A stretch of 64,000 nucleotides of DNA from a virus. The notes beneath the pieces were generated by a model that did no database searches, was not told the DNA's origin, and saw only the letters and a list, made by a program, of their open reading frames with translations. The stretch lies in the IMG/VR virus record IMGVR_UViG_3300045988_081419, positions 1 to 64,000 of that record. One strand, written 5' to 3'. This document shows positions 34,593 to 53,855 of the stretch, one piece after another; position 1 is the stretch's first letter, and every line of letters starts with the position of its first letter. Made by a program: the position numbers and the translations under genes.

Positions 34593-36266
34593 TTATTTTC
34601 TTGTAGGTAAAGTCTCCACAATAGAGTCAATAATCTTTCTCACATCACTTGCCCCACTTCCGATTGAACTATACACATTGATAACGTCCACAACTCTCTC
34701 AGAGAATCCAGTAATAAGATTTTTTCTAAAGTCATCAGTGTTGACAATAGCAAAGCTGTTACCTAAGAGGTTATCCAGATACAGCTTCTTAATGACTTTC
34801 TTCTTAAAGAGGATATTCACCGCTTCGTCTGTGTTATAAGAAGAGTAATAACCTCTTACATACAGACGGAAAGAACTACCACTGGAAGAATAGCAATCTC
34901 CATCAGAAAGAATGATTAAGTTGTCATACTTAGTATTCTGACTTGCAAGTACATTGATTGCAGTGTCCAGATTCGTACAACTACCTACATTGTGGTTCAT
35001 AATAGTCTTCATAATGTCCATAACTGTAGACTTCTTAGAAATGTCAGTCACCTGCTCACATCTATCTGCGAACACATACACATCTGCAATTCCTTTCTTA
35101 AAGCAGATTGCACCTAACATACAAGCTACAATGTCTGCTGTTACATTAGAAGCACCAGATACAGAGTGTCTCATAGAACCAGAACGGTCAATAAGGATAG
35201 CACTGTAACCCTCAATATCCTGCAAGTTGTCAATAGAGAGGTCTAATGCTTCTACTAAAGCGTCCATGACTCTTCTCTTTCCGGCAGAATTACTCAGTTT
35301 AGACACCTCTTGATATGCACTGTAGAATCTGAAAGGTAACAGTCTGGACTTCTGTACCTCTTTCTTATTCGTGAGTTTTGCCACAATACTGTCTACTGCT
35401 TTAGAATCACTAAACATACCTGCTCTGTCAAGTGCTACAAGGTTCTTCACAATAGCCATGACTGTAGAGGTATCAATGGACTTCTTAACATCAGCCTTTG
35501 TGGTCTTACTGTTCTTGTTGTTCACTTTAGACAACTCAGCCTGCACCTGCTTAGTCTCTTCACTGCCACCAAACTCTACATTACCCTCAATGACTCTCTT
35601 ATAGAAGTCTTCACTGACCCTAGAGTTAGCCGGATTAGGTCTTAAAAGTTTGATACAGTCGGCAAGAGATACCTCTCTGTTATCTCCCAGTGCTTTAGAC
35701 AACTGATACTCGTTAAAAGACTCCAACTTCATTTTCAAGGACTTCCTTAACTGCATAGGGAGTGGCTGATTTCTGTGATTGGTCTTATTCTTTCCCCGAC
35801 CTTTTGTAGTCACGTCAAAACCAAACACATTCATCTGCATTGCCATAATATCAGTAATGTCTTTACCTCTTCTAACAATATAGTCTGTGTAGGTCTGCAA
35901 CTTGTTTCTTCCAGTCACTTCATCAATGAAGTTCTCACCCTTAAATCTAGGGTCATTAAAACAAGCTGTAAGCACTGCCAGAGGGTACTGAATCATATTA
36001 TACTCTCTGCCGATTCTGGCTACTTTTAAAGCATACTCTACATCAGACTCCGGGATTTCCGCAATAAGTCTCTGAATCTCTTTAAAGTCTTTCTCTGCTG
36101 TCCTCTTCTCATAATGAGTACCCTCACCAAAGAAAGAACTCAACACTTTACTAAACAGAATTTCAAGGGTGTCTAACTTATGTACTACACTACCCTCATG
36201 GTTCACTGTCTTTCTGGTGTCAGTCTTCATGTTCACTGCTCCACGTTTCTTGTTCATTGTTGCCAT
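34593..36266 (-). CDS. rsr: Ro60 (Rsr) orthologue: TROVE domain + vWA domain
   Basis: NHEGSVVHKLDTLEILFSKVLSSFFGEGTHY (TROVE N-terminal signature) and ILIDRSGSM MIDAS motif. Start at ATG (MATMNKK) 8 nt after AGGAGG. Confidence 0.7.
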   Translation of the reverse strand: MATMNKKRGAVNMKTDTRKTVNHEGSVVHKLDTLEILFSKVLSSFFGEGTHYEKRTAEKDFKEIQRLIAEIPESDVEYALKVARIGREYNMIQYPLAVLTACFNDPRFKGENFIDEVTGRNKLQTYTDYIVRRGKDITDIMAMQMNVFGFDVTTKGRGKNKTNHRNQPLPMQLRKSLKMKLESFNEYQLSKALGDNREVSLADCIKLLRPNPANSRVSEDFYKRVIEGNVEFGGSEETKQVQAELSKVNNKNSKTTKADVKKSIDTSTVMAIVKNLVALDRAGMFSDSKAVDSIVAKLTNKKEVQKSRLLPFRFYSAYQEVSKLSNSAGKRRVMDALVEALDLSIDNLQDIEGYSAILIDRSGSMRHSVSGASNVTADIVACMLGAICFKKGIADVYVFADRCEQVTDISKKSTVMDIMKTIMNHNVGSCTNLDTAINVLASQNTKYDNLIILSDGDCYSSSGSSFRLYVRGYYSSYNTDEAVNILFKKKVIKKLYLDNLLGNSFAIVNTDDFRKNLITGFSERVVDVINVYSSIGSGASDVRKIIDSIVETLPTRK

Positions 36267-36372
36267 AATACATTCCTCCTTTAATTTCATAAATGTGTGG
36301 ATATAATAAAAGACCTCACAATTCGGGAAGATTGTGAAGTCCTTTAATCTTAACAAGTGTAGGAAGAAAAGC

Positions 36373-36493
36373 GTTATTGTATGAAATCGTTTGCTTCATT
36401 AAAAGTGAAGTGCCTTAACCAATTAGGCTATCTGTCAAATTATTTGGCTGACGGAGTGGGAATCGAACCCACATAAATGATGTAAACAATAAC
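36373..36493 (-). ncRNA. Circularly permuted, acceptor-capped tRNA-Lys(UUU)-like RNA
   Basis: Order on the minus strand: leader helix, T arm GUGGG-UUCGAUU-CCCAC, UCCGUCA, 11-nt cap, UGACAGA, UA, D arm GCCU..AGGC, A, CUUCA-CUUUUAA-UGAAG, trailer. Leader GUUAUUGU pairs with trailer ACAAUAAC. Confidence 0.6.
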
Positions 36494-36542
36494 TGCACAA
36501 TCCTACCACAATAATTACTACGTTAAAATTTAGGAGTAAAGC

Positions 36543-36662
36543 CACTTAGCTGTAAATCTCTTAAAGAGTGTTTTCAAGACACTTGCGTATTCCAGTTTCG
36601 CCAAATTTCCAATCGGAAATTATAAGATTTGAACCTATATATTTTATGATGTAAGCTAAATG
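36543..36662 (-). ncRNA. Circularly permuted, acceptor-capped tRNA-Ser(UGA)-like RNA
   Basis: T arm AUAGG-UUCAAAU-CUUAU, AAUUUCC-GAUU-GGAAAUU capped acceptor, UG, D arm GCG..CGC, A, AGUGU-CUUGAAA-ACACU. Leader CAUUUAGCU pairs with trailer AGCUAAGUG. Confidence 0.6.
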
Positions 36663-36721
36663 TACACAACCCAAATTATTATATTCCTTTTAAAGTGGAG
36701 TAAAACGATAAAGTCTGTTTG

Positions 36722-36794
36722 TTATCACAACAGGAGTCGAACCTGCAATCTTTTTCTTGGAATGAAAACGTCTTAACCATTTGACTATATGATG
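36722..36794 (-). tRNA. tRNA-Gly(UCC)
   Basis: Acceptor CAUCAUA/UGUGAUA (C1-A72 mismatch), anticodon arm UUUUC-AUUCCAA-GAAAA, T arm GCAGG-UUCGACU-CCUGU; no encoded CCA. Confidence 0.75.
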
Positions 36795-36860
36795 TAAACT
36801 TTATCTACACAACCACTATAGTTACTCTATCATAAGGAAGAAAAACATAAAAGACTTCTT

Positions 36861-36933
36861 TTCATATTGTCGGAATCGAACCAACTACACTTATTTCCCA
36901 AAAATAATGCTCTACCTATTGAGCTAAACATGA
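36861..36933 (-). tRNA. tRNA-Pro(UGG)
   Basis: Acceptor UCAUGUU/AAUAUGA, D arm GCUC-AAUAGGUA-GAGC, anticodon arm UUAUU-UUUGGGA-AAUAA, T arm GUUGG-UUCGAUU-CCGAC. Confidence 0.85.
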
Positions 36934-37021
36934 TGTAATCTTTTATTACACAATCCTTATTTTCTTTAACACTGCTCTCAGCGTGTTTACACTATATCAC
37001 ACTTTCTAAAAGCTGTCAAAA

Positions 37022-37094: not shown

Positions 37095-37282
37095 ATGAAG
37101 CAGACACTTTATCACGCATTTACCTTACCACTAATGACACTACTGATGTATCACAATGACCTCAGTATGTTATCACCAATGGAACAGTCGAGTGGAAGGG
37201 TAGTCTGCACACCCAATCGGCTTATCCACACATTCAAGTGTGAGAGTGTATGGTGTGGAGAAAGGATTCAAGCCACACCAAG

Positions 37283-37367
37283 TCGGTGAGGTAGGAATTG
37301 AACCTACGTTGTTTCTAATGTCACAGATTTACAGTCTGCTGTCTTCGCCTACTGGACACACTCACCG
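37283..37367 (-). tRNA. tRNA-Tyr(GUA), long-variable-region type
   Basis: Acceptor CGGUGAG/CUCACCG 7/7, anticodon arm GCAGA-CUGUAAA-UCUGU, T arm GUAGG-UUCAAUU-CCUAC. D region and the 15-nt variable region are irregular. Confidence 0.65.
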
Positions 37368-37594
37368 ATTTTAAGTCACTGTGATAGGAAAGTCCGGCTG
37401 TTATACTTCGTTCACACTTCATTGGATAGACTAAAGTGATTTCGGCAACTATCTCCTTGTCTGCTACTCATACATATCCGTCTCGTCTATCAAGACCTTT
37501 CGCTTTGGCAATCAACAAGTTCGTGACTATCAGCATTTTTATTGTAAGTCCTCCACTACTGGAATACCTTACTTAGTCGGCTGACAAGACTAAA

Positions 37595-37667
37595 CTGACT
37601 CAGCAGGACTCGAACCTGCGACTTTCTGATTAACAGTCAGACGTTCTACCAACTGAACTATGAGTCA
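37595..37667 (-). tRNA. tRNA-Asn(GUU)
   Basis: Acceptor UGACUCA/UGAGUCA, D arm GUUC-AGUUGGUA-GAAC, anticodon arm UCUGA-CUGUUAA-UCAGA, T arm GCAGG-UUCGAGU-CCUGC. Confidence 0.9.
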
Positions 37668-37762
37668 TCATGCACACTCATGTAGTTTCCGTTTTCCTAT
37701 TGCTAGCATTGGTCTCTGCACAACTGAGTGTGTGATATAGGAATTTCCTAGGATTCCTATAA

Positions 37763-37838
37763 CTGAGTAGGAAGGTATCGAACCTTCTTTACAACACTGT
37801 TGCAACACAGGTGTTTTCTTCCACAACAAAGCTACTCA
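37763..37838 (-). ncRNA. Aberrant tRNA-like element (canonical acceptor and T arm, degenerate D/anticodon core)
   Basis: Acceptor UGAGUAG/CUACUCA 7/7 and T arm GAAGG-UUCGAUA-CCUUC. The core has no 4-bp D stem, and only AACAC/GUGUU closes a 13-nt loop CUGUGUUGCAACA. Confidence 0.5.
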
Positions 37839-38120
37839 TTAAAGGTAAGTGTCTGTAGGCTTTCCACCTACTTGCAGGTTTGGTAGTTATCGTCTAACTC
37901 ACAAGACCTCTTTTACCCAGTGACTTTTCTGGCAACCTTACGGATTTGTTTCCACTGACTATTGCTACACAGTCTTAACCACATGGGAATATGGGCTGTA
38001 TAACTCATTTCACTTACCAATAGTGGTAAAGGGTACTATCACCTCGCCCTGTTATTATCGGGTGAATTTAGTAGGTACACGCATTACTGCATATTGTGTA
38101 TGACCTCTCTTACCACTAAA

Positions 38121-48975: not shown

Positions 48976-51042
48976 TTATAATTCAGCGTCCACGATATTA
49001 TCTTCATCTTCTTCTTTCTTGCCTAAGTCACCAAAAATCTTTTCAAGGATTCCTCCTCTTTGTGGGTTGGTAACTTGTGTTGTCATTTCTTGTGTTCCGT
49101 CACTTCTGAGAATTTTAGTCTGTCTTAACACCTCAGTATTTCCATTTTCATACATCTGTTTAAGCTGACCTAAATATCTCATGGACTGGTCCATCATAGA
49201 AGAAACATTCGGGTCTGGGAGTCCTCCCTCAAGAATTTCAAACATCATGGTTCTCTGTAAACGTCCTAAAGAGAAGTCTACAATACCTTGCATAGCTTGA
49301 ATAATGTCTCCCATGTCTCTTGTGTCGAACTTATCAAAAATCTTGTTGTAAGCACAAGCAAATCCGGCTTTATATTCTGGACATTTCTGAGCCGCATAAC
49401 AAGTATCACAAGCCATTTTAGGGAACTTCTTAGAGTACATTTTCTTAGGCTTCAACACTTGTCTTTGACCTTTAAGGAAATGACCCTTTTCATCACGAAT
49501 GGGTGTGATACCCTCTTCTGCAAAGATTTCATCATCTAAAGAGTCAATCTCCGGGGCAGTTCCATCTTCACTCTCCGGCAGGTACTTTGAAAGGACATTA
49601 AGGACTTCCATTTCAGTAACGTCCTCTGTCTCATACTCTTCATCAGTAATGTAGGTTTCACGTTCCTTTACTACTCTGTCAAAATTAGTGCCGAGGAGAA
49701 GAAGTTTATCACTCTCACCTAAAAGGTTCTCCTTGTAGAACTGAATAAGGTCTGCTACCCTTTCTTCATCAGTCTGGACAATTCTATTTATCCAAAGGTC
49801 GTGTAACTCTTTAATGAGTTCCGGGGTATAAACTCTGTTGATATAGTCTACATACTCTGGTTTATCCCAGTTCATAAAACAAGTCATATCAATAACACAG
49901 TTAAGAGCCTGTACTTTGTCCTCTTGAGACACATTAAACATTTCAGCGTATTTCTGCCACTCTGCGTCTTGTGTTTCTGGGGAGTCTAACCATTCTGGTG
50001 TTGGGTACTGGATTGAGTCAAGGTCTGCTTCTGTTCTCTTTTCTCCTTTAGGTCTTAACCAGTACATTCTTGCCCGACACTGCTTCTGAATGTATTTTTC
50101 GGCTTCAATAAAGGCAAACACATTGACCTTAATCATTTCAGTGTTATCCTCTTCTAACAGCTTATCTTCATCAAAGCCTAAAGAAACAAGTTTCGGGAGC
50201 ATATTTCCTTTCCACTTGTCTTTCTTTAGTCTTGTCATCTTCTTGCCAGTCCAATAGTTGACTTCTCCATATTGAAGACCAACAAGCCATGTAGTTGAGT
50301 CTACTGTGTAGAATGGGAGGGAGGTTAAAAGAGAAGTCTTTGTCATAGCCATTCCATGTACAACACTGTTGTACTTCTCTGCTATTCTAAGCCTTTCTCT
50401 TACAATCTTTTCTCCATTATTTGAATCAAACTCCCAAGGCATACCAATGTAGGGATAACGCTGTGCATATTGTTCCCAAGTTCTTGCTGTTTCACCCTCA
50501 TGGTAGATAAAACACACTGGAATACCAGTCTCTAGCATGAAAGGCTCAAAGTATTTCTCATTCCACTCTTGAACAATTTCCGGTTGAACATGACCCTCAA
50601 TGTCAAGGTTGGCAATAGCAAAGATAATGTCTTTGTGTCTTTTAGCCCACCTTAAATATCTTTGAATCTGTTCTTCCCACTGTTCCACTGTGTACTCTGC
50701 ATACTTAGAATCATTTCTGTATGTATAAGCACCAGAGTCTACAAAGAACTTTATACCAAGACCACTAAACTTATCAACGTCCATGTGTTTATTCTGTACA
50801 TACTGATAGGACACAAGGAAGTTTCTAATACCCAGTCCATACAGAATGTCAAAGTTTCTTTCATCTTCAACACCAGAGTACAACATATGAAAGTCCTGCT
50901 CTCTATCAACAATATCCCAGAGTGTCTTAGGTTTCTCATTCTCAGAATGGTCTTTCTGGTTCGTAATTTGACTAAATTTAGACTTTCCAATGCTTTCACT
51001 TGTATTTGTACTCTTAGCCTTTTTCAGCTTTAATTTAGGCAT
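48976..51042 (-). CDS. dpdA: DpdA-like DNA (7-deazaguanine) transglycosylase with long Cys-rich C-terminal extension
   Basis: TGT/DpdA-type core FDILYGLGIRNFLVSYQY...KFFVDSGAYTY; adjacent to folE-queC-queE-queD. 688 aa, which appears roughly twice the length I recall for DpdA proteins (from memory, not checked); CDTCYAAQKCPEYKAGFAC cluster. Confidence 0.65.
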   Translation of the reverse strand: MPKLKLKKAKSTNTSESIGKSKFSQITNQKDHSENEKPKTLWDIVDREQDFHMLYSGVEDERNFDILYGLGIRNFLVSYQYVQNKHMDVDKFSGLGIKFFVDSGAYTYRNDSKYAEYTVEQWEEQIQRYLRWAKRHKDIIFAIANLDIEGHVQPEIVQEWNEKYFEPFMLETGIPVCFIYHEGETARTWEQYAQRYPYIGMPWEFDSNNGEKIVRERLRIAEKYNSVVHGMAMTKTSLLTSLPFYTVDSTTWLVGLQYGEVNYWTGKKMTRLKKDKWKGNMLPKLVSLGFDEDKLLEEDNTEMIKVNVFAFIEAEKYIQKQCRARMYWLRPKGEKRTEADLDSIQYPTPEWLDSPETQDAEWQKYAEMFNVSQEDKVQALNCVIDMTCFMNWDKPEYVDYINRVYTPELIKELHDLWINRIVQTDEERVADLIQFYKENLLGESDKLLLLGTNFDRVVKERETYITDEEYETEDVTEMEVLNVLSKYLPESEDGTAPEIDSLDDEIFAEEGITPIRDEKGHFLKGQRQVLKPKKMYSKKFPKMACDTCYAAQKCPEYKAGFACAYNKIFDKFDTRDMGDIIQAMQGIVDFSLGRLQRTMMFEILEGGLPDPNVSSMMDQSMRYLGQLKQMYENGNTEVLRQTKILRSDGTQEMTTQVTNPQRGGILEKIFGDLGKKEEDEDNIVDAEL

Positions 51043-51047
51043 TTCAC

Positions 51048-51617
51048 TTACCCCTTTCTTCTTTCTTTAAACTCTTGATAAGAGTCCTCAAATCCGGGAT
51101 TCACTCTCTTAAAATATGTGATAGTACTGCAATCACTCTCAGCACCTCTACACTTTACACATTGATGTGTTGCTTCTACCTCTACAAACAGTGCATGAGG
51201 TTCAAGCATTTCAATTAAAAACTCGCCAATCTCTGTAGTAAGTTTCTCCTGCAACTGTGGTCTTTTACTAAAGTATTTTACTACTCTAGGAAGTTTTGAC
51301 AAACCAATGATGTTATCACTAGGAACATAACCAATGGTGACTTTGCCGGAGAAAGGTAAAAAGTGGTGTTCACAAGTAGAATTAAAGTCAATGTCTCTTA
51401 CAATCACCATGTCACTTCCATACTCATTAGGAAAGGTAGTCATGGTCTCCTTTAACTCTTTCATGTGTGCATCATTTACATTAGCAAATAACTCATTCAC
51501 CCACATCTTAGAAATTCTAAGTGACGTATTTTTGTTGCTCTCCGTCTTTTCAATCTCAAGAATTTTCATAATTTCTTCAAGATGTTCCTTAATCTTTTCT
51601 ACTTTGTTATTTATCAT
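51048..51617 (-). CDS. folE: GTP cyclohydrolase I
   Basis: CEHHFLPFSGKVTIGYVP and QCVKCRG motifs. Confidence 0.9.
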   Translation of the reverse strand: MINNKVEKIKEHLEEIMKILEIEKTESNKNTSLRISKMWVNELFANVNDAHMKELKETMTTFPNEYGSDMVIVRDIDFNSTCEHHFLPFSGKVTIGYVPSDNIIGLSKLPRVVKYFSKRPQLQEKLTTEIGEFLIEMLEPHALFVEVEATHQCVKCRGAESDCSTITYFKRVNPGFEDSYQEFKERRKG

Positions 51618-51653
51618 AGTAAGTACCTCCTTTATCTTGTTACTCCATTATAA

Positions 51654-51686
51654 CACAAAAAAGCCCTCGGTCAATAACCGAGAGCC
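51654..51686 (-). terminator. Rho-independent terminator
   Basis: GGCUCUCGG..CCGAGGGCU hairpin followed by UUUUUUGUG on the minus strand. Confidence 0.65.
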
Positions 51687-51711
51687 TTTTCGTCTTTTAG
51701 GAAGAGTAGGA

Positions 51712-51864
51712 TTAACGTCCTCTCACACGATTTGCAACATTCTGGATACCATTACGAACAGCTCGTCCTGCTCTTTGAAGAATGTTACCACCTCTGTTGC
51801 CACCTCTCTGAGAGTTACCGCCACCTCTTGCTCCTCTACTGGAACCTGCGTATGCTTTCATCAT
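51712..51864 (-). CDS. 50-aa RGG-rich micro-protein
   Basis: MMKAYAGSSRGARGGGNSQRGGNRGGNILQRAGRAVRNG..; GGAGGA RBS; own terminator. Confidence 0.5.
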   Translation of the reverse strand: MMKAYAGSSRGARGGGNSQRGGNRGGNILQRAGRAVRNGIQNVANRVRGR

Positions 51865-51989
51865 AGCTGTGTCCTCCTTTTTCGTATATTTGGTTAAGGG
51901 GTGTCATCATAATAGGGGAATATACTAAACGCCTATCAGAGTACAGTTGGCTTAACCTGTATATAATATACCAAAACACATATAGGAAG

Positions 51990-52604
51990 TCAATAGGTTT
52001 CACCATAAATTTCTTCCAGTGCTTTACAGTCTGGACACCTTTTACATGGCAGGACTCCTAACACTGGCTCATTACAAGAGAAAAAGTCTTTCGGGGTAAT
52101 ATTGTGTTTTAAAGCAATCTCTTTAAAATCCCACTTATCCACGTCAATGAAAGGTGTTTTAATCTCAATATGGCTGTCCTTTAAGACTGTTTCAAGTGCA
52201 TTAAAGAACTCACCTTTACAATCAATGTATTCGTGTCCGTCAAAAGATTTGATAACTGCTACATAAATCACTGTACTACCAATACTCTGAGCCAAAGAAG
52301 AAGCATAGGACATGAAAATAAGATTGCGGTACTCAAGGTACTGTTCATCACCATATTCATTAGAGGTCTTTCTACCATACAGTGTACTCTGAGACCACTT
52401 AATAGGTTTGAGTTTCACTACATGGTTTATCATATTCAACTTCTTACACACCCTCTTAGCCCGATTTGTTTCCATAAGATGGTTTCTGTTTCCATATTCA
52501 AAATGGAGGGAGTGAATTTCTGCGTCTGGGTTATTATCCCTAACCCAGTGACACAGACACACACTGTCAAAACCTCCGCTGTTCAGTACTACAATCTTTT
52601 TCAT
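51990..52604 (-). CDS. queC: 7-cyano-7-deazaguanine synthase
   Basis: PP-loop VLNSGGFDS and C-terminal CNEP..CKRCPDC zinc cluster. Confidence 0.9.
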   Translation of the reverse strand: MKKIVVLNSGGFDSVCLCHWVRDNNPDAEIHSLHFEYGNRNHLMETNRAKRVCKKLNMINHVVKLKPIKWSQSTLYGRKTSNEYGDEQYLEYRNLIFMSYASSLAQSIGSTVIYVAVIKSFDGHEYIDCKGEFFNALETVLKDSHIEIKTPFIDVDKWDFKEIALKHNITPKDFFSCNEPVLGVLPCKRCPDCKALEEIYGETY

Positions 52605-52615
52605 GTGTGTACCTC

Positions 52616-52942
52616 CTAGCGTCTAAAAATATCCGGCACATCAGATGGGAGAGCATTTCTTGTAGGTCTTGCCTTATTCTCTGTAGAGTGGTATAAAGGT
52701 TGACCCACACTTCTCTGCTGTCTCTCTTCTGTCTTAGGTGTTTTAGCAGGTCTTCTTCCGGCTACTTTGTTAAGTCCATTGAGTCTTGCTGTCTCTTCTT
52801 CTAAGATTTCTTTTGCACCAAGTTTTGCTCCGTCATATCTGTCTTTGTCTGCTTTAATCTCTTCTGCCCTTGCAAGTGTTCTTGCGTCATCACGTCTCTG
52901 CCATCTTGCTTCTTCTGGGTCAATAGGTCTTCTATTCATCAT
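52616..52942 (-). CDS. Hypothetical basic protein
   Basis: 108-aa R/K/E-rich ORF inside the que cluster. Confidence 0.45.
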   Translation of the reverse strand: MMNRRPIDPEEARWQRRDDARTLARAEEIKADKDRYDGAKLGAKEILEEETARLNGLNKVAGRRPAKTPKTEERQQRSVGQPLYHSTENKARPTRNALPSDVPDIFRR

Positions 52943-53010
52943 TACTTTTTACCTCCTTTTTTGCTACCTTTCTTAGTACTCTTACTACCTTTTTTAGTTC
53001 CACAAGCCAT
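52942..53010 (-). CDS. 22-aa K/G/S-rich micro-ORF (tentative)
   Basis: MACGTKKGSKSTKKGSKKGGKK; GGAGGTG RBS; start and stop each overlap neighbours by 1 nt (TAATG). Confidence 0.3.
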   Translation of the reverse strand: MACGTKKGSKSTKKGSKKGGKK

Positions 53011-53204
53011 TATGTGTCACCTCCTACATCTAAAAGCTGACCTGTCTCAATCACACCACCTTGTTTCTGGCAGTTAGGACATTTAAGGTCTTTTAAAAGG
53101 GTTTCCACTGGTCTAACAGAAATCCATCTGTGAACACAGTGAACACAGAGGACTTCTGATACCATGTGAGGTTTGTTTGCGTCAATATCAACAACCTTTG
53201 ACAT
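53010..53204 (-). CDS. Small zinc-ribbon protein
   Basis: CVHCVHRW...CPNC in 64 aa. Confidence 0.5.
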   Translation of the reverse strand: MSKVVDIDANKPHMVSEVLCVHCVHRWISVRPVETLLKDLKCPNCQKQGGVIETGQLLDVGGDT

Positions 53205-53855
53205 TTACTGTACCTCCAAAATCTTATGCAACTGAATCTGGACTCTGACGTTTAAATGGTCTTCAAGAATCCACTCAACAAGTTCTTTTCCAATGTAGGC
53301 TTTTCCATTCGGGTCAAACATAGGACTGACAAGAATACTTGCAGAAGTAGGGTACTTTTTCATAACCCCTTTCATAAACTCATAATCTTCTCTGTCCTTG
53401 ATAACATACTTAACCTCGTCATTGTTTTGCAATTTTAAAAGGTTCTCATAAATGTTTTTGTGCTTTACTCCACTGGACGGACCTTTAATGTCCATCACAT
53501 ATTTGTAACTTCTTCTGTAACTAGGTTCTTCCAAAGGAACACAACCACTTGTCTCAATAGACACATTAAATCCGAGGGATTGTAACTCATATACCAGTGG
53601 AAGTGCTTCTTCATGGATAAGTGGCTCACCACCTGTCAGACAAATGTTCTTACACCACTTATAGTCTTTAAGGACTGCTTGAACTAAGTTACCTACAGAA
53701 ATTCTTTTTCTGTCCTCTTTCTTTTGGGGTTGGTCGCAATAGGAACAACCTACTGGACAGCCAAACAAACGAATAAAGACACAAGGGAGACCAGTATCAC
53801 TTGATTCTCCCTGTATGCTACAAAAGATTTCATCATAGTATAACATAGTCTCCAC
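53205..53855 (-). CDS. queE: 7-carboxy-7-deazaguanine synthase (radical SAM)
   Basis: CPVGCSYCDQ CxxxCxxC cluster; 216 aa; between queD and queC. Confidence 0.85.
   Translation of the reverse strand: METMLYYDEIFCSIQGESSDTGLPCVFIRLFGCPVGCSYCDQPQKKEDRKRISVGNLVQAVLKDYKWCKNICLTGGEPLIHEEALPLVYELQSLGFNVSIETSGCVPLEEPSYRRSYKYVMDIKGPSSGVKHKNIYENLLKLQNNDEVKYVIKDREDYEFMKGVMKKYPTSASILVSPMFDPNGKAYIGKELVEWILEDHLNVRVQIQLHKILEVQ

What the first reader, a model, noticed from the sequence alone, without database searches (positions are those of the whole stretch)
36373..36662. Two circularly permuted, acceptor-capped tRNA-like genes (Lys-UUU and Ser-UGA bodies) whose ends exit through an extended variable-arm helix
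On the minus strand, two adjacent ~120-nt units contain every tRNA element in permuted order: leader strand, T arm, 3' acceptor strand, short cap, 5' acceptor strand, N8N9, D arm, N26, complete anticodon arm, trailer strand. Unit A (36493 to 36373) reads GUUAUUGU-UUAC-AUCAUUU-AU-[GUGGG UUCGAUU CCCAC]-UCCGUCA-GCCAAAUAAUU-UGACAGA-UA-[GCCU AAUUGGUUA AGGC]-A-[CUUCA CUUUUAA UGAAG]-C-AAACGAU-UUCAU-ACAAUAAC. Unit B (36662 to 36543) reads CAUUUAGCU-UACAUCAUAAAAUAU-[AUAGG UUCAAAU CUUAU]-AAUUUCC-GAUU-GGAAAUU-UG-[GCG AAACUGGAAUA CGC]-A-[AGUGU CUUGAAA ACACU]-CUUUAAGAGAUUUAC-AGCUAAGUG. Unit B has a GGAA start, a 3-bp D stem and G73, as in bacterial tRNA-Ser. The acceptor strands pair 6/7 and 7/7 across the cap. 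The outer leader and trailer segments are complementary (8/8, and 9/9 with one G-U) but differ in sequence between the units, i.e. compensatory covariation. The acceptor end is therefore closed, and the RNA termini emerge from a ~20-bp helix at the variable-arm position. Three readings are possible. (1) Y-RNA-type tRNA mimics: bacterial YrlA RNAs lack a free CCA end and sit next to rsr, but here a true anticodon loop is kept and the exit is via the variable arm. (2) Genuinely permuted or two-piece tRNAs, matured by cutting the cap, as for permuted tRNA genes of Cyanidioschyzon merolae and two-piece tmRNAs from permuted ssrA. (3) Decoys for anticodon nucleases, since tRNA-Lys is the PrrC and PARIS target. 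I know of no description of this architecture in a phage.
Basis: partly seen in the sequence, partly recalled or inferred. Interest (0 to 1): 0.92.

Follow-up and report, generated by a model that had tools for sequence, protein, structure and literature searches.

The report
Phage Y RNAs shaped like permuted tRNAs
Next to its Ro60 gene, this gut phage encodes two real RNAs built like tRNAs with the acceptor end looped shut and a full anticodon arm; they are an undescribed variant of the known Ro60-partner "YrlA" Y RNAs and sit in an array with two ordinary tRNAs on the same conserved stem.

Summary
Units A (36506-36359) and B (36677-36527), minus strand, are conserved paralogous RNA genes in about 20 independent contigs of one phage clade. 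All major helices covary: 95% of cells pair against 32-45% in slid controls. ARAGORN of 54 un-permuted versions tRNA and 0 of 27 native ones. Corrections: the "20-bp variable-arm helix" is P2 (3 bp, invariant), P1 (8-9 bp), a conserved 7x8-nt internal loop and an outer helix P0. Unit A's "Lys" anticodon is not conserved (UUU, GUU, GCU, UGU, UGA, ACG). The same P0-loop-P1-UUAC platform also flanks tRNA-Pro and tRNA-Gly just upstream, giving four modules between one promoter-like site and one terminator-like hairpin, directly upstream of Ro60. Best explanation: phage Y RNAs of the YrlA type (tRNA mimic on a Ro60-docking stem), known in bacteria and 22 phages. They differ from the described family by keeping a complete anticodon arm, exiting at the variable-arm position, and lacking the GNCGAA motif. 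The platform geometry recurs around tRNAs at Ro60 loci of crAss-like phages, where the anticodon also switches between close relatives. Ro60 binding, cap cleavage and any decoy role are inferred, not shown. New variant of a known kind.

The parts
36991..37019 (-). Sigma-70-type promoter-like site TTGACA-17-TGnTATAGT in front of the four-module array
   Evidence: 11 of 12 consensus matches with an extended -10 TG. By eye, the same sequence precedes the array in L146 and L003. Consensus match only; not proof of function.
36832..36960 (-). Module M1: P0 (36960-36954 / 36838-36832), conserved loop (UUGUGUA / GUUUUUCU), P1 (36946-36939 / 36854-36847), UUACA, and an ordinary tRNA-Pro(UGG) at 36933-36861
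   Evidence: tRNA called by ARAGORN and Rfam at 58.3 bits. Platform helices covary. Coordinates checked.
36694..36817 (-). Module M2: P0 (5 bp), conserved loop, P1 (36805-36798 / 36714-36707), UUA, and an ordinary-topology tRNA (Gly-UCC here) at 36794-36721 with a C1.A72 mismatch and A73
   Evidence: In relatives the same body carries anticodons GUU, AAC, GCA, GUC, GUA and UCA.
36527..36677 (-). Unit B (whole): P0 36677-36670 / 36534-36527; loop UUGUGUA 36669-36663 / GCUUUACU 36542-36535; P1 36662-36654 / 36551-36543; linker with UACAUCAU; T arm 36638-36622; acceptor 3' strand 36621-36615; cap GAUU 36614-36611; acceptor 5' strand 36610-36604; UG; D arm 36601-36585; A26; anticodon arm 36583-36567 (UGA); 15-nt linker
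   Evidence: The unit A model R1 matches it full length at 73.9 bits. The acceptor covaries: GGAAAUU/AAUUUCC, GAGAAUU/AAUUCUC, AGCAAUU/AAUUGCU, GCCGAUU/AUUCGGC. The rotated form is called tRNA-Ser(UGA). Coordinates checked.
36359..36506 (-). Unit A (whole): P0 36506-36501 / 36364-36359; loop UUGUGCA 36500-36494 / GCUUUUCU 36372-36365; P1 36493-36486 / 36380-36373; UUAC 36485-36482; P2 AUC 36481-36479 / GAU 36388-36386; T arm 36472-36456; acceptor 3' strand 36455-36449; cap GCCAAAUAAUU 36448-36438; acceptor 5' strand 36437-36431; UA; D arm 36428-36412; A26; anticodon arm 36410-36394 (UUU at 36403-36401)
   Evidence: Covariation. MFE fold equals the model. Rfam YrlA matches model positions 30-81 on 36473-36412, and Rfam tRNA scores 29.1 bits on 36437-36377. 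The rotated form is called tRNA. Coordinates checked.
36438..36448 (-). Cap of unit A, beginning G-CCA (discriminator plus CCA) followed by a 7-nt linker
   Evidence: NCCA opens the cap in most unit A homologs (GCCA, ACCA, CCCA) while the rest of the cap varies in length and sequence. Exceptions are GCCG, GCG and GCA.
36298..36346 (-). Terminator-like hairpin (16-bp stem, 8-nt loop) with a U-rich tail, between unit A and Ro60
   Evidence: dG -18.9 kcal/mol, z = -4.5, 0 of 200 shuffles as stable. Not flagged by the simple terminator scan.
34593..36266 (-). Ro60 ortholog (557 aa, TROVE + Ro60 vWA domains), with a Shine-Dalgarno AAAGGAGG upstream
   Evidence: Pfam TROVE 4.7e-13 and vWA_Ro60 9.7e-08. 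PHROG 850 'RNA-binding protein' 1.2e-31. PDB best hits are phiLo Ro60 9L5Y/9KOP at 2.7e-12, then 1YVP and 2NVO.

Best explanation
Units A and B are two paralogous phage Y RNAs of the YrlA kind. Each is a tRNA-shaped head carried on a stem formed by the RNA's own 5' and 3' ends, encoded directly upstream of, and on the same strand as, the phage's Ro60 protein.

Shown by sequence and comparison:
- Each unit folds into a T arm, a 7-bp acceptor stem closed by a loop, U8, a D arm, and a complete 5-bp/7-nt anticodon arm. All nucleotides needed for the tRNA L-shape are present: U8, A14, A15-U48, G18G19, A21, and the G53-UUCRA-C61 T loop.
- The chain ends leave between the anticodon arm and the T arm. 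They pass through P2 (3 bp), an internal loop starting UUAC, P1 (8-9 bp), a 7x8-nt internal loop of nearly fixed sequence, and P0 (6-8 bp).
- The same platform carries two ordinary tRNAs immediately upstream. The four modules lie between one promoter-like site and one terminator-like hairpin.

Inferred:
- The array is transcribed as one precursor and cut between modules.
- The platform, which has the same layout as the Ro60-binding module of canonical YrlA, docks on Ro60.
- The tRNA-like head, here including a genuine anticodon loop, recruits one or more tRNA-binding proteins to the Ro60 particle. [quoted passage not shown]
- Because the acceptor stem is 7 bp, RNase P may cut the cap, as it does in M. 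smegmatis YrlA.
For: Ro60 identity and adjacency.

Partial Rfam YrlA match over the T arm, capped acceptor and D arm.

Layout parallel with the Rfam YrlA consensus seen on CcrColossus (H1 - internal loop - H2 - CUAc - H3 - T - AS - UA - D), with UUAC matching the conserved YUAY: and for the literature.

Covariation of all helices except P2.

Rotation test.

RNA-level selection on this strand (G.U 26 against A.C 3 in the platform).

Only the four Ro60-proximal modules in 64 kb carry the platform; the other four tRNAs of the cluster do not.

The platform geometry recurs around a tRNA at Ro60 loci of crAss-like phages whose Ro60 is about 24% identical. There, 4 of 6 motif sites satisfy strict geometry, against 0 of 109 in 1.04 Mb of unrelated contigs, with 3 compensatory changes in P0.

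A second lineage (L174) has a T-AS-D-anticodon-like-arm RNA 45 nt upstream of its Ro60.

Against: The motif defined for Ro60 recognition in YrlA (GNCGAAN0-1G) is absent. The conserved loop reads GG(A/U)(A/U)UGUGYA, which is only loosely similar.

The Rfam YrlA score is 26.5 bits against a gathering score of 69, and covers only model positions 30-81.

A platform-only covariance model found nothing at other Ro60 loci, so the cross-clade link rests on a geometric search with only two independent sequences.

The platform also flanks ordinary tRNAs, which a pure processing signal would explain equally well.

There is no expression, binding or processing data. P2 has no covariation.
Confidence: 0.7

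Rival explanations
1. Split (two-piece) tRNAs. RNase P cuts the cap at the 5' side of the acceptor 5' strand. The 3' overhang is trimmed to, or rebuilt as, CCA. The two pieces stay together through the platform and acceptor helices and act as an aminoacylatable tRNA with a very long open 'variable arm'. This could coexist with Ro60 binding.
For: The 7-bp acceptor is strictly kept with compensatory changes. Seven base pairs is what made M. smegmatis YrlA an RNase P substrate in vivo, with CCA completion. Unit A's cap starts with N73-CCA in most homologs although the phage's ordinary tRNAs do not encode CCA. Rotated sequences are called tRNAs with canonical anticodon loops.
Against: Unit B has no CCA and a variable 'discriminator' (G, A, C, U). 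Unit A's anticodon changes between close relatives without matching changes in the body, so a constant amino-acid identity is implausible. CCA is lost in three unit A variants. It is unknown whether a platform of about 20 bp, possibly with Ro60 bound, fits on a ribosome or synthetase.
Confidence: 0.15
2. Anticodon-loop decoys or baits. The capped units, and perhaps the platform-borne tRNAs, present anticodon loops to host tRNA-cleaving defence nucleases. They would act as competitive inhibitors, sponges or tethers, possibly delivering the nuclease to the Ro60 particle.
For: The anticodon loops keep Y32, U33, R37 and the 7-nt size, while the triplet itself changes. In module M2 and unit A the three anticodon columns took 10 and 9 inferred changes against 0.7-0.8 per column elsewhere (Poisson P 5e-5 to 1e-3). 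In close relatives the RNA body differs by about 1%, while the anticodon differs at 1-2 of 3 positions and Ro60 4-fold sites differ by 8-16%. The same switch (Ile-GAU to Lys-UUU on one body) occurs in the platform-borne tRNA of crAss-like phages. Hughes et al. 2020 proposed YrlA as a competitive inhibitor of an anticodon nuclease.
Against: The anticodon rate is at least neutral but not shown to exceed neutral: about 5 changes against about 2 expected in the close subclades by my estimate. Relaxed constraint explains it as well. Unit B (UGA) and M1 (UGG) are fixed. The host and any nuclease are unknown. None of the 38 ORFs scanned against Pfam or PHROGs is an RNA-repair or nuclease-inhibitor gene.
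Confidence: 0.25
3. The platform is only an RNA-processing or stability signal, for example an RNase III-type site like the stem-internal loop-stem signals of T7 early RNAs (my own knowledge). It would excise each RNA from the polycistronic transcript, and units A and B would be stable tRNA-derived RNAs with no functional link to Ro60.
For: The same platform flanks ordinary tRNAs. All four modules lie in one putative transcript and must be separated. The published Ro60 motif is absent.
Against: Only the four Ro60-proximal RNAs carry the platform; tRNA-Gln, Tyr, Asn and Ser in the same cluster do not. The internal loop is conserved in sequence and exact size (7x8) across all modules, which suggests specific recognition. 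The geometry recurs beside Ro60 in crAss-like phages, which presumably infect a different host phylum. The layout parallels the YrlA Ro60-binding module.
Confidence: 0.12
4. Artefact: broken or chimeric tRNA genes, a tandem-tRNA junction misread as a unit, or DNA-level inverted repeats.
For: Closely spaced tandem tRNAs (Thr+Gln, 6-7 nt apart) give partial matches to the unit model (36 bits, model positions 39-119).
Against: About 20 independent assemblies hold the same units with compensatory changes in the acceptor and platform. Real units score 74-185 bits full length. G.U far exceeds A.C, so selection acts on RNA of this strand.
Confidence: 0.01

Closest known systems
YrlA (Y RNA-like A; Rfam RF02553; Chen et al. 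2014, PMC4201824; structure in Wang et al. 2018, bioRxiv 10.1101/312249)
   Same: Encoded beside Ro60 on the same strand, including in phages. The order is T arm, closed acceptor-like stem, UA, D arm, with the tRNA tertiary-interaction nucleotides. The termini form a two-helix stem with an internal loop, followed by a conserved YUAY (here UUAC). There are several Y RNAs per locus, made from one precursor. A 7-bp acceptor occurs, as in the M. smegmatis YrlA that RNase P cleaves.
   Different: [quoted passage not shown] There is no separate V hairpin 5' of the T arm. The GNCGAAN0-1G motif is replaced by GG(A/U)(A/U)UGUGYA. The Rfam score is well below the gathering threshold. The same stem also carries ordinary tRNAs.
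Deinococcus radiodurans Yrn1 (Y RNA)
   Same: A Ro60-bound RNA with a T arm and an 'anticodon-like' 5-bp arm whose ends exit through the acceptor position. That is the topology of modules M1 and M2 here.
   Different: Yrn1 has a 6-nt loop, no full D arm, and is not a functional-looking tRNA. M1 and M2 score 58 bits as tRNAs. Units A and B have the opposite (permuted) topology.
Thermus phage phiLo Yrl1/Yrl2 with phiRo60 (PMC12135203)
   Same: Two Y-RNA-like genes directly upstream of a phage Ro60, which is the closest solved relative of this Ro60. They were shown to bind Ro60 and to form complexes with host PNPase.
   Different: The phiLo RNAs were picked by a CGAA motif and a stem-bulge-stem shape and are not described as tRNA-like. 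Rfam and my model found nothing tRNA-like upstream of phiLo Ro60.
Circularly permuted tRNA genes (Cyanidioschyzon merolae) and split tRNAs (Nanoarchaeum); my own knowledge
   Same: The 3' half precedes the 5' half, and rotation restores a normal cloverleaf. A leader-trailer helix holds the ends together.
   Different: Those precursors are joined at a bulge-helix-bulge motif by the archaeal/eukaryal splicing endonuclease and ligase. Here the helix between the two internal loops is 8 bp rather than 4, and the loops are 7x8 and about 4x5 nt. The junction is in the variable region, and the same platform also flanks non-permuted tRNAs.
Permuted (two-piece) tmRNA
   Same: A tRNA-like domain encoded in permuted order and processed into two base-paired pieces.
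   Different: There is no tag reading frame. ARAGORN finds no tmRNA, and Rfam tmRNA matches are only the T arm.

Membership tests
YrlA Y RNA (Chen 2014 / Rfam RF02553) | Encoded next to a Ro60 (TROVE) gene on the same strand | tested here: met
   Unit A ends 93 nt upstream of the Ro60 ATG, same strand.
YrlA Y RNA (Chen 2014 / Rfam RF02553) | tRNA-like module in the order T arm - closed acceptor-like stem - UA - D arm, with conserved tertiary nucleotides | tested here: met
   Rfam YrlA model positions 30-81 match. U8, A14, A15/U48, G18G19 and the UUCRA T loop are invariant.
YrlA Y RNA (Chen 2014 / Rfam RF02553) | Termini exit through the stem that takes the place of the anticodon stem; no anticodon loop | tested here: not met
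   A full 5-bp/7-nt anticodon arm follows N26, with 5 of 5 pairs covarying. The exit lies between that arm and the T arm.
YrlA Y RNA (Chen 2014 / Rfam RF02553) | GNCGAAN0-1G motif near the 5' end (proposed Ro60 contact) | tested here: not met
   The invariant 5' loop is (U/A)UGUGYA preceded by GG or GGA. GGAAUG in most M1 modules resembles CGAAUG of the Rfam consensus only loosely.
YrlA Y RNA (Chen 2014 / Rfam RF02553) | Conserved YUAY after the second helix of the stem | tested here: met
   UUAC is present after P1 in nearly all of the 34 distinct platform sequences; one M2 copy (L005) reads AUAC. It sits in the position of CUAc in the Rfam consensus.
YrlA Y RNA (Chen 2014 / Rfam RF02553) | Reaches the Rfam gathering score (69 bits) | tested here: not met
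   26.5 bits, local match only. The three YrlA-like RNAs of phage CcrColossus, a phage the phiLo paper cites among those with Y-RNA-like ncRNAs, also score only 30-42 bits.
YrlA Y RNA (Chen 2014 / Rfam RF02553) | Bound by Ro60; modified by TruB/DusA | not testable with these tools
   Needs immunoprecipitation or gel shifts, and modification mapping.
Functional tRNA (RF00005) | Contiguous cloverleaf with free 5' and 3' acceptor ends | tested here: not met
   ARAGORN of 27 native units and 54 of 54 only after rotation. Rfam tRNA scores of 29.1 and 23.3 bits arise from forced alignments lacking a T arm.
Functional tRNA (RF00005) | Anticodon conserved among orthologs | tested here: inconclusive
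   Unit B keeps UGA, with one UAA variant. Unit A does not: six different anticodons.
Permuted tRNA gene (C. merolae type) | Bulge-helix-bulge motif (3-nt bulge, 4-bp helix, 3-nt bulge) at the leader-trailer junction | tested here: not met
   The junction is an 8-9-bp helix between a 7x8-nt loop and a loop of about 4x5 nt. The motif definition is from my own knowledge.
Permuted / two-piece tmRNA | Tag-peptide reading frame with resume codon, plus a tRNA-Ala-like acceptor | tested here: not met
   ARAGORN reports no tmRNA in the window.

The most novel reading that the evidence does not exclude
The four modules are a Ro60-docked panel of anticodon loops: two real tRNAs and two capped mimics on one protein-binding platform. 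Their anticodons turn over quickly because they track the specificities of host tRNA-cleaving defence nucleases. The Ro60 particle would act as decoy, sponge or tether, possibly handing the nuclease or the damaged RNA to an exonuclease. This would give the long-unexplained tRNA-like domain of bacterial and phage Y RNAs a concrete function, and it would define a new RNA-based anti-defence strategy shared by unrelated gut phages.
Probability: 0.2. Interest if true: 0.9.

Novelty: new variant of a known kind. Interest (0 to 1): 0.64.

Why it matters
Y RNAs with tRNA-like domains have been known since 2014, but what the tRNA-like part does is still open. This variant bears on that question in three ways.

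1. It keeps a full anticodon stem-loop and, in unit A, what looks like a discriminator plus CCA. This is what the published model predicts if YrlA arose from a dimeric tRNA transcript, so the units look like a less-reduced or independently evolved intermediate.
2. The Ro60-type stem can carry ordinary tRNAs as well as capped mimics. This links phage tRNA arrays to Ro60 biology in at least two unrelated gut phage groups.
3. The anticodon is the fastest-changing part of an otherwise tightly constrained RNA. That points experiments at anticodon-loop-binding partners such as nucleases, modification enzymes and synthetases.

The system is small, the phage Ro60 family has a solved structure, and every prediction can be tested with standard RNA biochemistry.

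Tried and rejected
- **Loose pattern scan.** It was useless except later as a control set.
- **DNA similarity to deposited phages.** No match.
- **Genome-collection scan.** Only chance matches, so no host or prophage was identified.
- **Extra model R1 hits at positions 39-119.** These are tandem tRNA pairs (Thr+Gln), not further units.
- **cr111_1 cargo-less hairpin (L166:1732-1813).** It resembles the platform, but its 16-24 bits lie within the noise of 868 kb of controls (up to 28 bits). The platform-only model R2 found nothing at other Ro60 loci. I do not count it as evidence. The crAss-like link rests on the strict geometric search instead.
- **Positive selection on the anticodon.** Not demonstrated. 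Ro60 4-fold sites are 8-16% diverged in 'close' pairs and 35-55% between subclades, so the anticodon rate is at least neutral but not provably higher.
Not maintained. The unit B linker hairpins are idiosyncratic and were left unpaired.
- **DNA-level inverted repeats.** Rejected by the G.U against A.C asymmetry.
- **RNA-repair genes.** None (RtcB, Rnl, Pnk) among the 38 ORFs scanned against Pfam or PHROGs. Not every ORF of the window was scanned.
- **L174-type RNA.** Not found in that phage's relatives, so there is no covariation for it.
- **Literature access.** Chen et al.'s supplementary alignments and two Wolin-lab reviews are not held. I therefore could not check whether an anticodon-arm-bearing phage YrlA appears in a supplementary figure.
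Full report
**What is there.**
On the minus strand the window holds a cluster of six ordinary tRNA genes: Ser, Asn, Tyr, Gln, Pro and Gly. Two units of about 150 nt follow, and then a 557-aa ORF. Pfam assigns that ORF to Ro60 (TROVE plus the Ro60 vWA domain). Its closest solved relative is the Ro60 of Thermus phage phiLo, followed by Xenopus Ro60 and Deinococcus Rsr. The window is a phage with an SPP1-type portal, a terminase, an anaerobic NrdD and ThyX. It has no close relative among deposited phages but has about 20 related contigs in IMG/VR and metagenomes, some from human gut.

**Checking the observation.**
- Homologs of unit A are present in every related contig, and homologs of unit B in most.
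- On a plain MAFFT alignment of 13 distinct unit A sequences, my structure pairs 94.3% of cells. When the 3' partners are slid by 1-3 columns, only 35-53% pair. Nine pairs change on both sides, and 0 of 500 shuffles reach any measure.
- A covariance model built from unit A finds unit B full length at 74-93 bits, so the two are paralogs of one design.
- On the joint model-fitted alignment, 95.2% of cells pair against 32-45% slid, and 24 of 39 pairs change on both sides. Compensatory changes occur in the T stem (3 of 5 pairs), capped acceptor (6 of 7), anticodon stem (5 of 5), P1 (5 of 8) and P0 (4 of 6).
- ARAGORN calls all 54 un-permuted constructs tRNAs and none of the 27 native sequences.
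- The minimum-energy fold of unit A alone reproduces the whole model (z = -3.1). Unit B reproduces all but the anticodon arm.
- The nucleotides that build the tRNA L-shape are invariant: U8, A14, A15 with U48, G18G19, A21 and GGUUCRA...CC.

The units are therefore real, selected RNA structures. They are not chimeras or tandem-tRNA junctions; those junctions give only 36-bit partial matches.

**Corrections to the observation.**
- The inner 7-bp 'variable-arm' helix is not maintained. Only AUC/GAU (3 bp, invariant) is kept, and in unit B that region is an irregular linker.
P0 differs between units and covaries.
- The anticodon of unit A is UUU, GUU, GCU, UGU, UGA or ACG in different relatives. 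Unit B keeps UGA, with one UAA, but not the tRNA-Ser-like acceptor start or discriminator.

**Four modules, not two.**
The same P0 - loop - P1 - UUAC(AUCAU) platform brackets tRNA-Pro (36960-36832) and tRNA-Gly (36817-36694) immediately upstream.
- I replaced the cargo with a tetraloop and aligned the result. The 34 distinct platforms from all four module classes align without a single gap. In that alignment 97.8% of cells pair against 40-55% slid, and 14 of 15 pairs change on both sides.
- G.U pairs outnumber A.C by 26 to 3, so selection acts on RNA of this strand and not on DNA repeats.
- In the whole 64-kb window the model finds only these four modules. The four tRNAs further upstream lack the platform.
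- A near-consensus promoter-like site (TTGACA-17-TGnTATAGT) precedes the first module. A 16-bp hairpin with a U-rich tail (z = -4.5) follows unit A. The array therefore looks like one transcription unit ending just before Ro60.

**What it is.**
Chen et al. 2014 described YrlA RNAs encoded beside Ro60 in 254 bacteria and 22 phages. They have a T arm, a closed 'acceptor' stem and a D arm in this permuted order, and a stem formed by the termini that carries a GNCGAAN0-1G motif and a conserved YUAY. The crystal-structure paper states that YrlA lacks the anticodon loop and that the stem to the Ro60-binding module takes the place of the anticodon stem.
- Rfam's YrlA model matches unit A over exactly the T arm, capped acceptor and D arm (26.5 bits, below the gathering score of 69).
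- Seen on phage CcrColossus, the Rfam consensus is outer helix - internal loop - second helix - CUAc - short third helix - T - AS - UA - D. That is the layout P0 - loop - P1 - UUAC - P2 - T - AS - UA - D found here.
- What differs is an extra, fully canonical anticodon arm between the D arm and the 3' strand of the exit stem, and a different loop sequence in place of GNCGAA.

I therefore file the units as a new structural variant of the YrlA kind, not as members by the published definition.

**Evidence that the platform belongs with Ro60.** This is inferred, not shown.
- The platform-only model R2 found nothing at Ro60 loci of other phages. CM scores for a platform-like hairpin in crAss-like phage cr111_1 lie within control noise.
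- I then ran a strict geometric search requiring six features:
  - 6 of 6 pairs in P0;
  - a 5' loop matching T[AT]GTGNN;
  - 8 of 8 pairs in P1;
  - TTAC immediately after P1;
  - any cargo of 6-230 nt;
  - an 8-nt 3' loop ending CT.
- This search found 4 hits among 6 motif sites in 136 kb of other phages' Ro60 loci. It found 0 among 109 motif sites in 1.04 Mb of unrelated contigs.
- The hits are two independent sequences in crAss-like phages whose Ro60 is about 24% identical to this one. Each flanks a tRNA 0.5-1.5 kb upstream of Ro60, with three compensatory changes in P0 between them.
- A further lineage (L174, a 235-kb contig) has a T arm - 7-bp capped acceptor - UA - D arm - 5-bp arm with a 9-nt loop. 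It lies between a Bacteroidetes-type promoter and a U run, 45 nt upstream of its Ro60. It is a single example.

**Fast-changing anticodons.**
- In module M2 the tRNA body is almost constant, but the anticodon is UCC, GUU, AAC, GCA, GUC, GUA or UCA in different relatives. Its acceptor has a C1.A72 mismatch and A73.
- By parsimony, the three anticodon columns of M2 and of unit A took 10 and 9 changes against 0.7-0.8 per column elsewhere (P between 5e-5 and 1e-3).
- The adjacent Ro60 gene is 8-16% diverged at 4-fold sites in the closest pairs. The anticodon therefore evolves at least as fast as neutral sites inside an RNA that is otherwise about 1% diverged. I cannot show that it is faster than neutral.
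- The crAss-like platform-borne tRNA does the same. It is Ile-GAU in L170 and Lys-UUU in L172 on one body, and Arg-UCU in L185 and L194.
- M1 (Pro-UGG) and unit B (UGA) are fixed.

**How it most likely works.**
- Shown: the fold, the conservation, the array and the linkage to Ro60.
- Inferred: the array is transcribed as one precursor and separated into modules. The platform docks on Ro60, as the terminal stem of other Y RNAs does. The tRNA-shaped head recruits tRNA-binding proteins.
- The 7-bp acceptor and the N73-CCA that opens most unit A caps make RNase P cleavage of the cap plausible. The precedent is M. smegmatis YrlA, which is cut and completed to CCA in vivo.
- The free-running anticodon and the published suggestion that YrlA competes with an anticodon nuclease make a decoy role the most interesting open possibility.
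- A pure processing-signal role for the platform is not excluded.

**Novelty.**
Phage Ro60 with Y RNAs, and tRNA mimicry by Y RNAs, are known. In the literature I could search, three things are not described:
- a Y RNA that keeps a complete anticodon arm and exits at the variable-arm position;
- ordinary tRNAs mounted on the same platform;
- anticodon turnover in such RNAs.

The architecture fits the published dimeric-tRNA origin model for YrlA as a less-reduced form.

Noticed in passing
window 36721-36794 (-), with homologs in L002-L007, L134, L142-L146, L154: The 'tRNA-Gly' of module M2 keeps a near-identical body across relatives but carries anticodons UCC, GUU, AAC, GCA, GUC, GUA or UCA (opal-reading). 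It always has a C1.A72 mismatch and A73, features of bacterial initiator tRNA by my own knowledge, and no encoded CCA.
   Followed up: partly
L170:1377-1498, L172:1665-1787, L185:842-971, L194:841-970: In crAss-like phages that encode Ro60, one tRNA upstream of Ro60 is flanked by the same platform geometry: 7-nt loop UAGUGAN, 8-bp P1, UUAC, 8-nt loop ending CU, and an outer helix. Its anticodon differs between close relatives: Ile-GAU, Lys-UUU, Arg-UCU.
   Followed up: partly
L174:2817-2955 (IMGVR_UViG_3300021431_004524): A single YrlA-like RNA with a T arm, a 7-bp capped acceptor, a D arm and an anticodon-like arm (5 bp, 9-nt loop), 45 nt upstream of a Ro60 gene. It sits between a Bacteroidetes-type promoter and a U run, and is absent from that phage's relatives.
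   Followed up: partly
window 48976-53855 (-): A 7-deazaguanine (preQ0) gene set: a TGT/DpdA-family transglycosylase (48976-51042), GTP cyclohydrolase I (51048-51617), QueC (51990-52604) and a radical-SAM protein (53205-53855). In phages this is usually a DNA-modification system. A possible link to the Q-family anticodons (GUN) seen in M2 was not examined.
   Followed up: no
window 37100-38120 (-), e.g. 37787-37771: The upstream tRNAs are separated by 150-450-nt spacers with no ORF and no Rfam match. One spacer holds an isolated T-arm-like hairpin, GAAGGUUCGAUACCUUC. Their nature is unexplained.
   Followed up: no
L141:110-300 (OMCF01005999.1): A metagenome contig carries unit A with a deletion running from the anticodon loop to the 3' internal loop (...CACUUUU|CUUCCUACAC). 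It looks like recombination between two CUUUUC repeats or an assembly error.
   Followed up: no
L164:1546-2157 (Caulobacter phage CcrColossus): Three sub-threshold Rfam YrlA matches (42, 30 and 30 bits) lie upstream of Ro60. The record's annotated 68-nt 'tRNA-Gln' (L164:1709-1776) overlaps the 5' part of the second one and may be a mis-annotated piece of a Y RNA.
   Followed up: no
L167:2172-2390 (phage csAssE-Sib); L166 and L185 about 100 nt upstream of Ro60: Other gut phages place tRNAs (Tyr, Lys) directly upstream of Ro60. The crAss-like clade has a conserved T-arm-like element (GAGGGUUCGAAUCCCUUC / GAGAGUUCGAAUCUCUUG) just before Ro60. Both suggest further uncharacterised Y RNAs.
   Followed up: no
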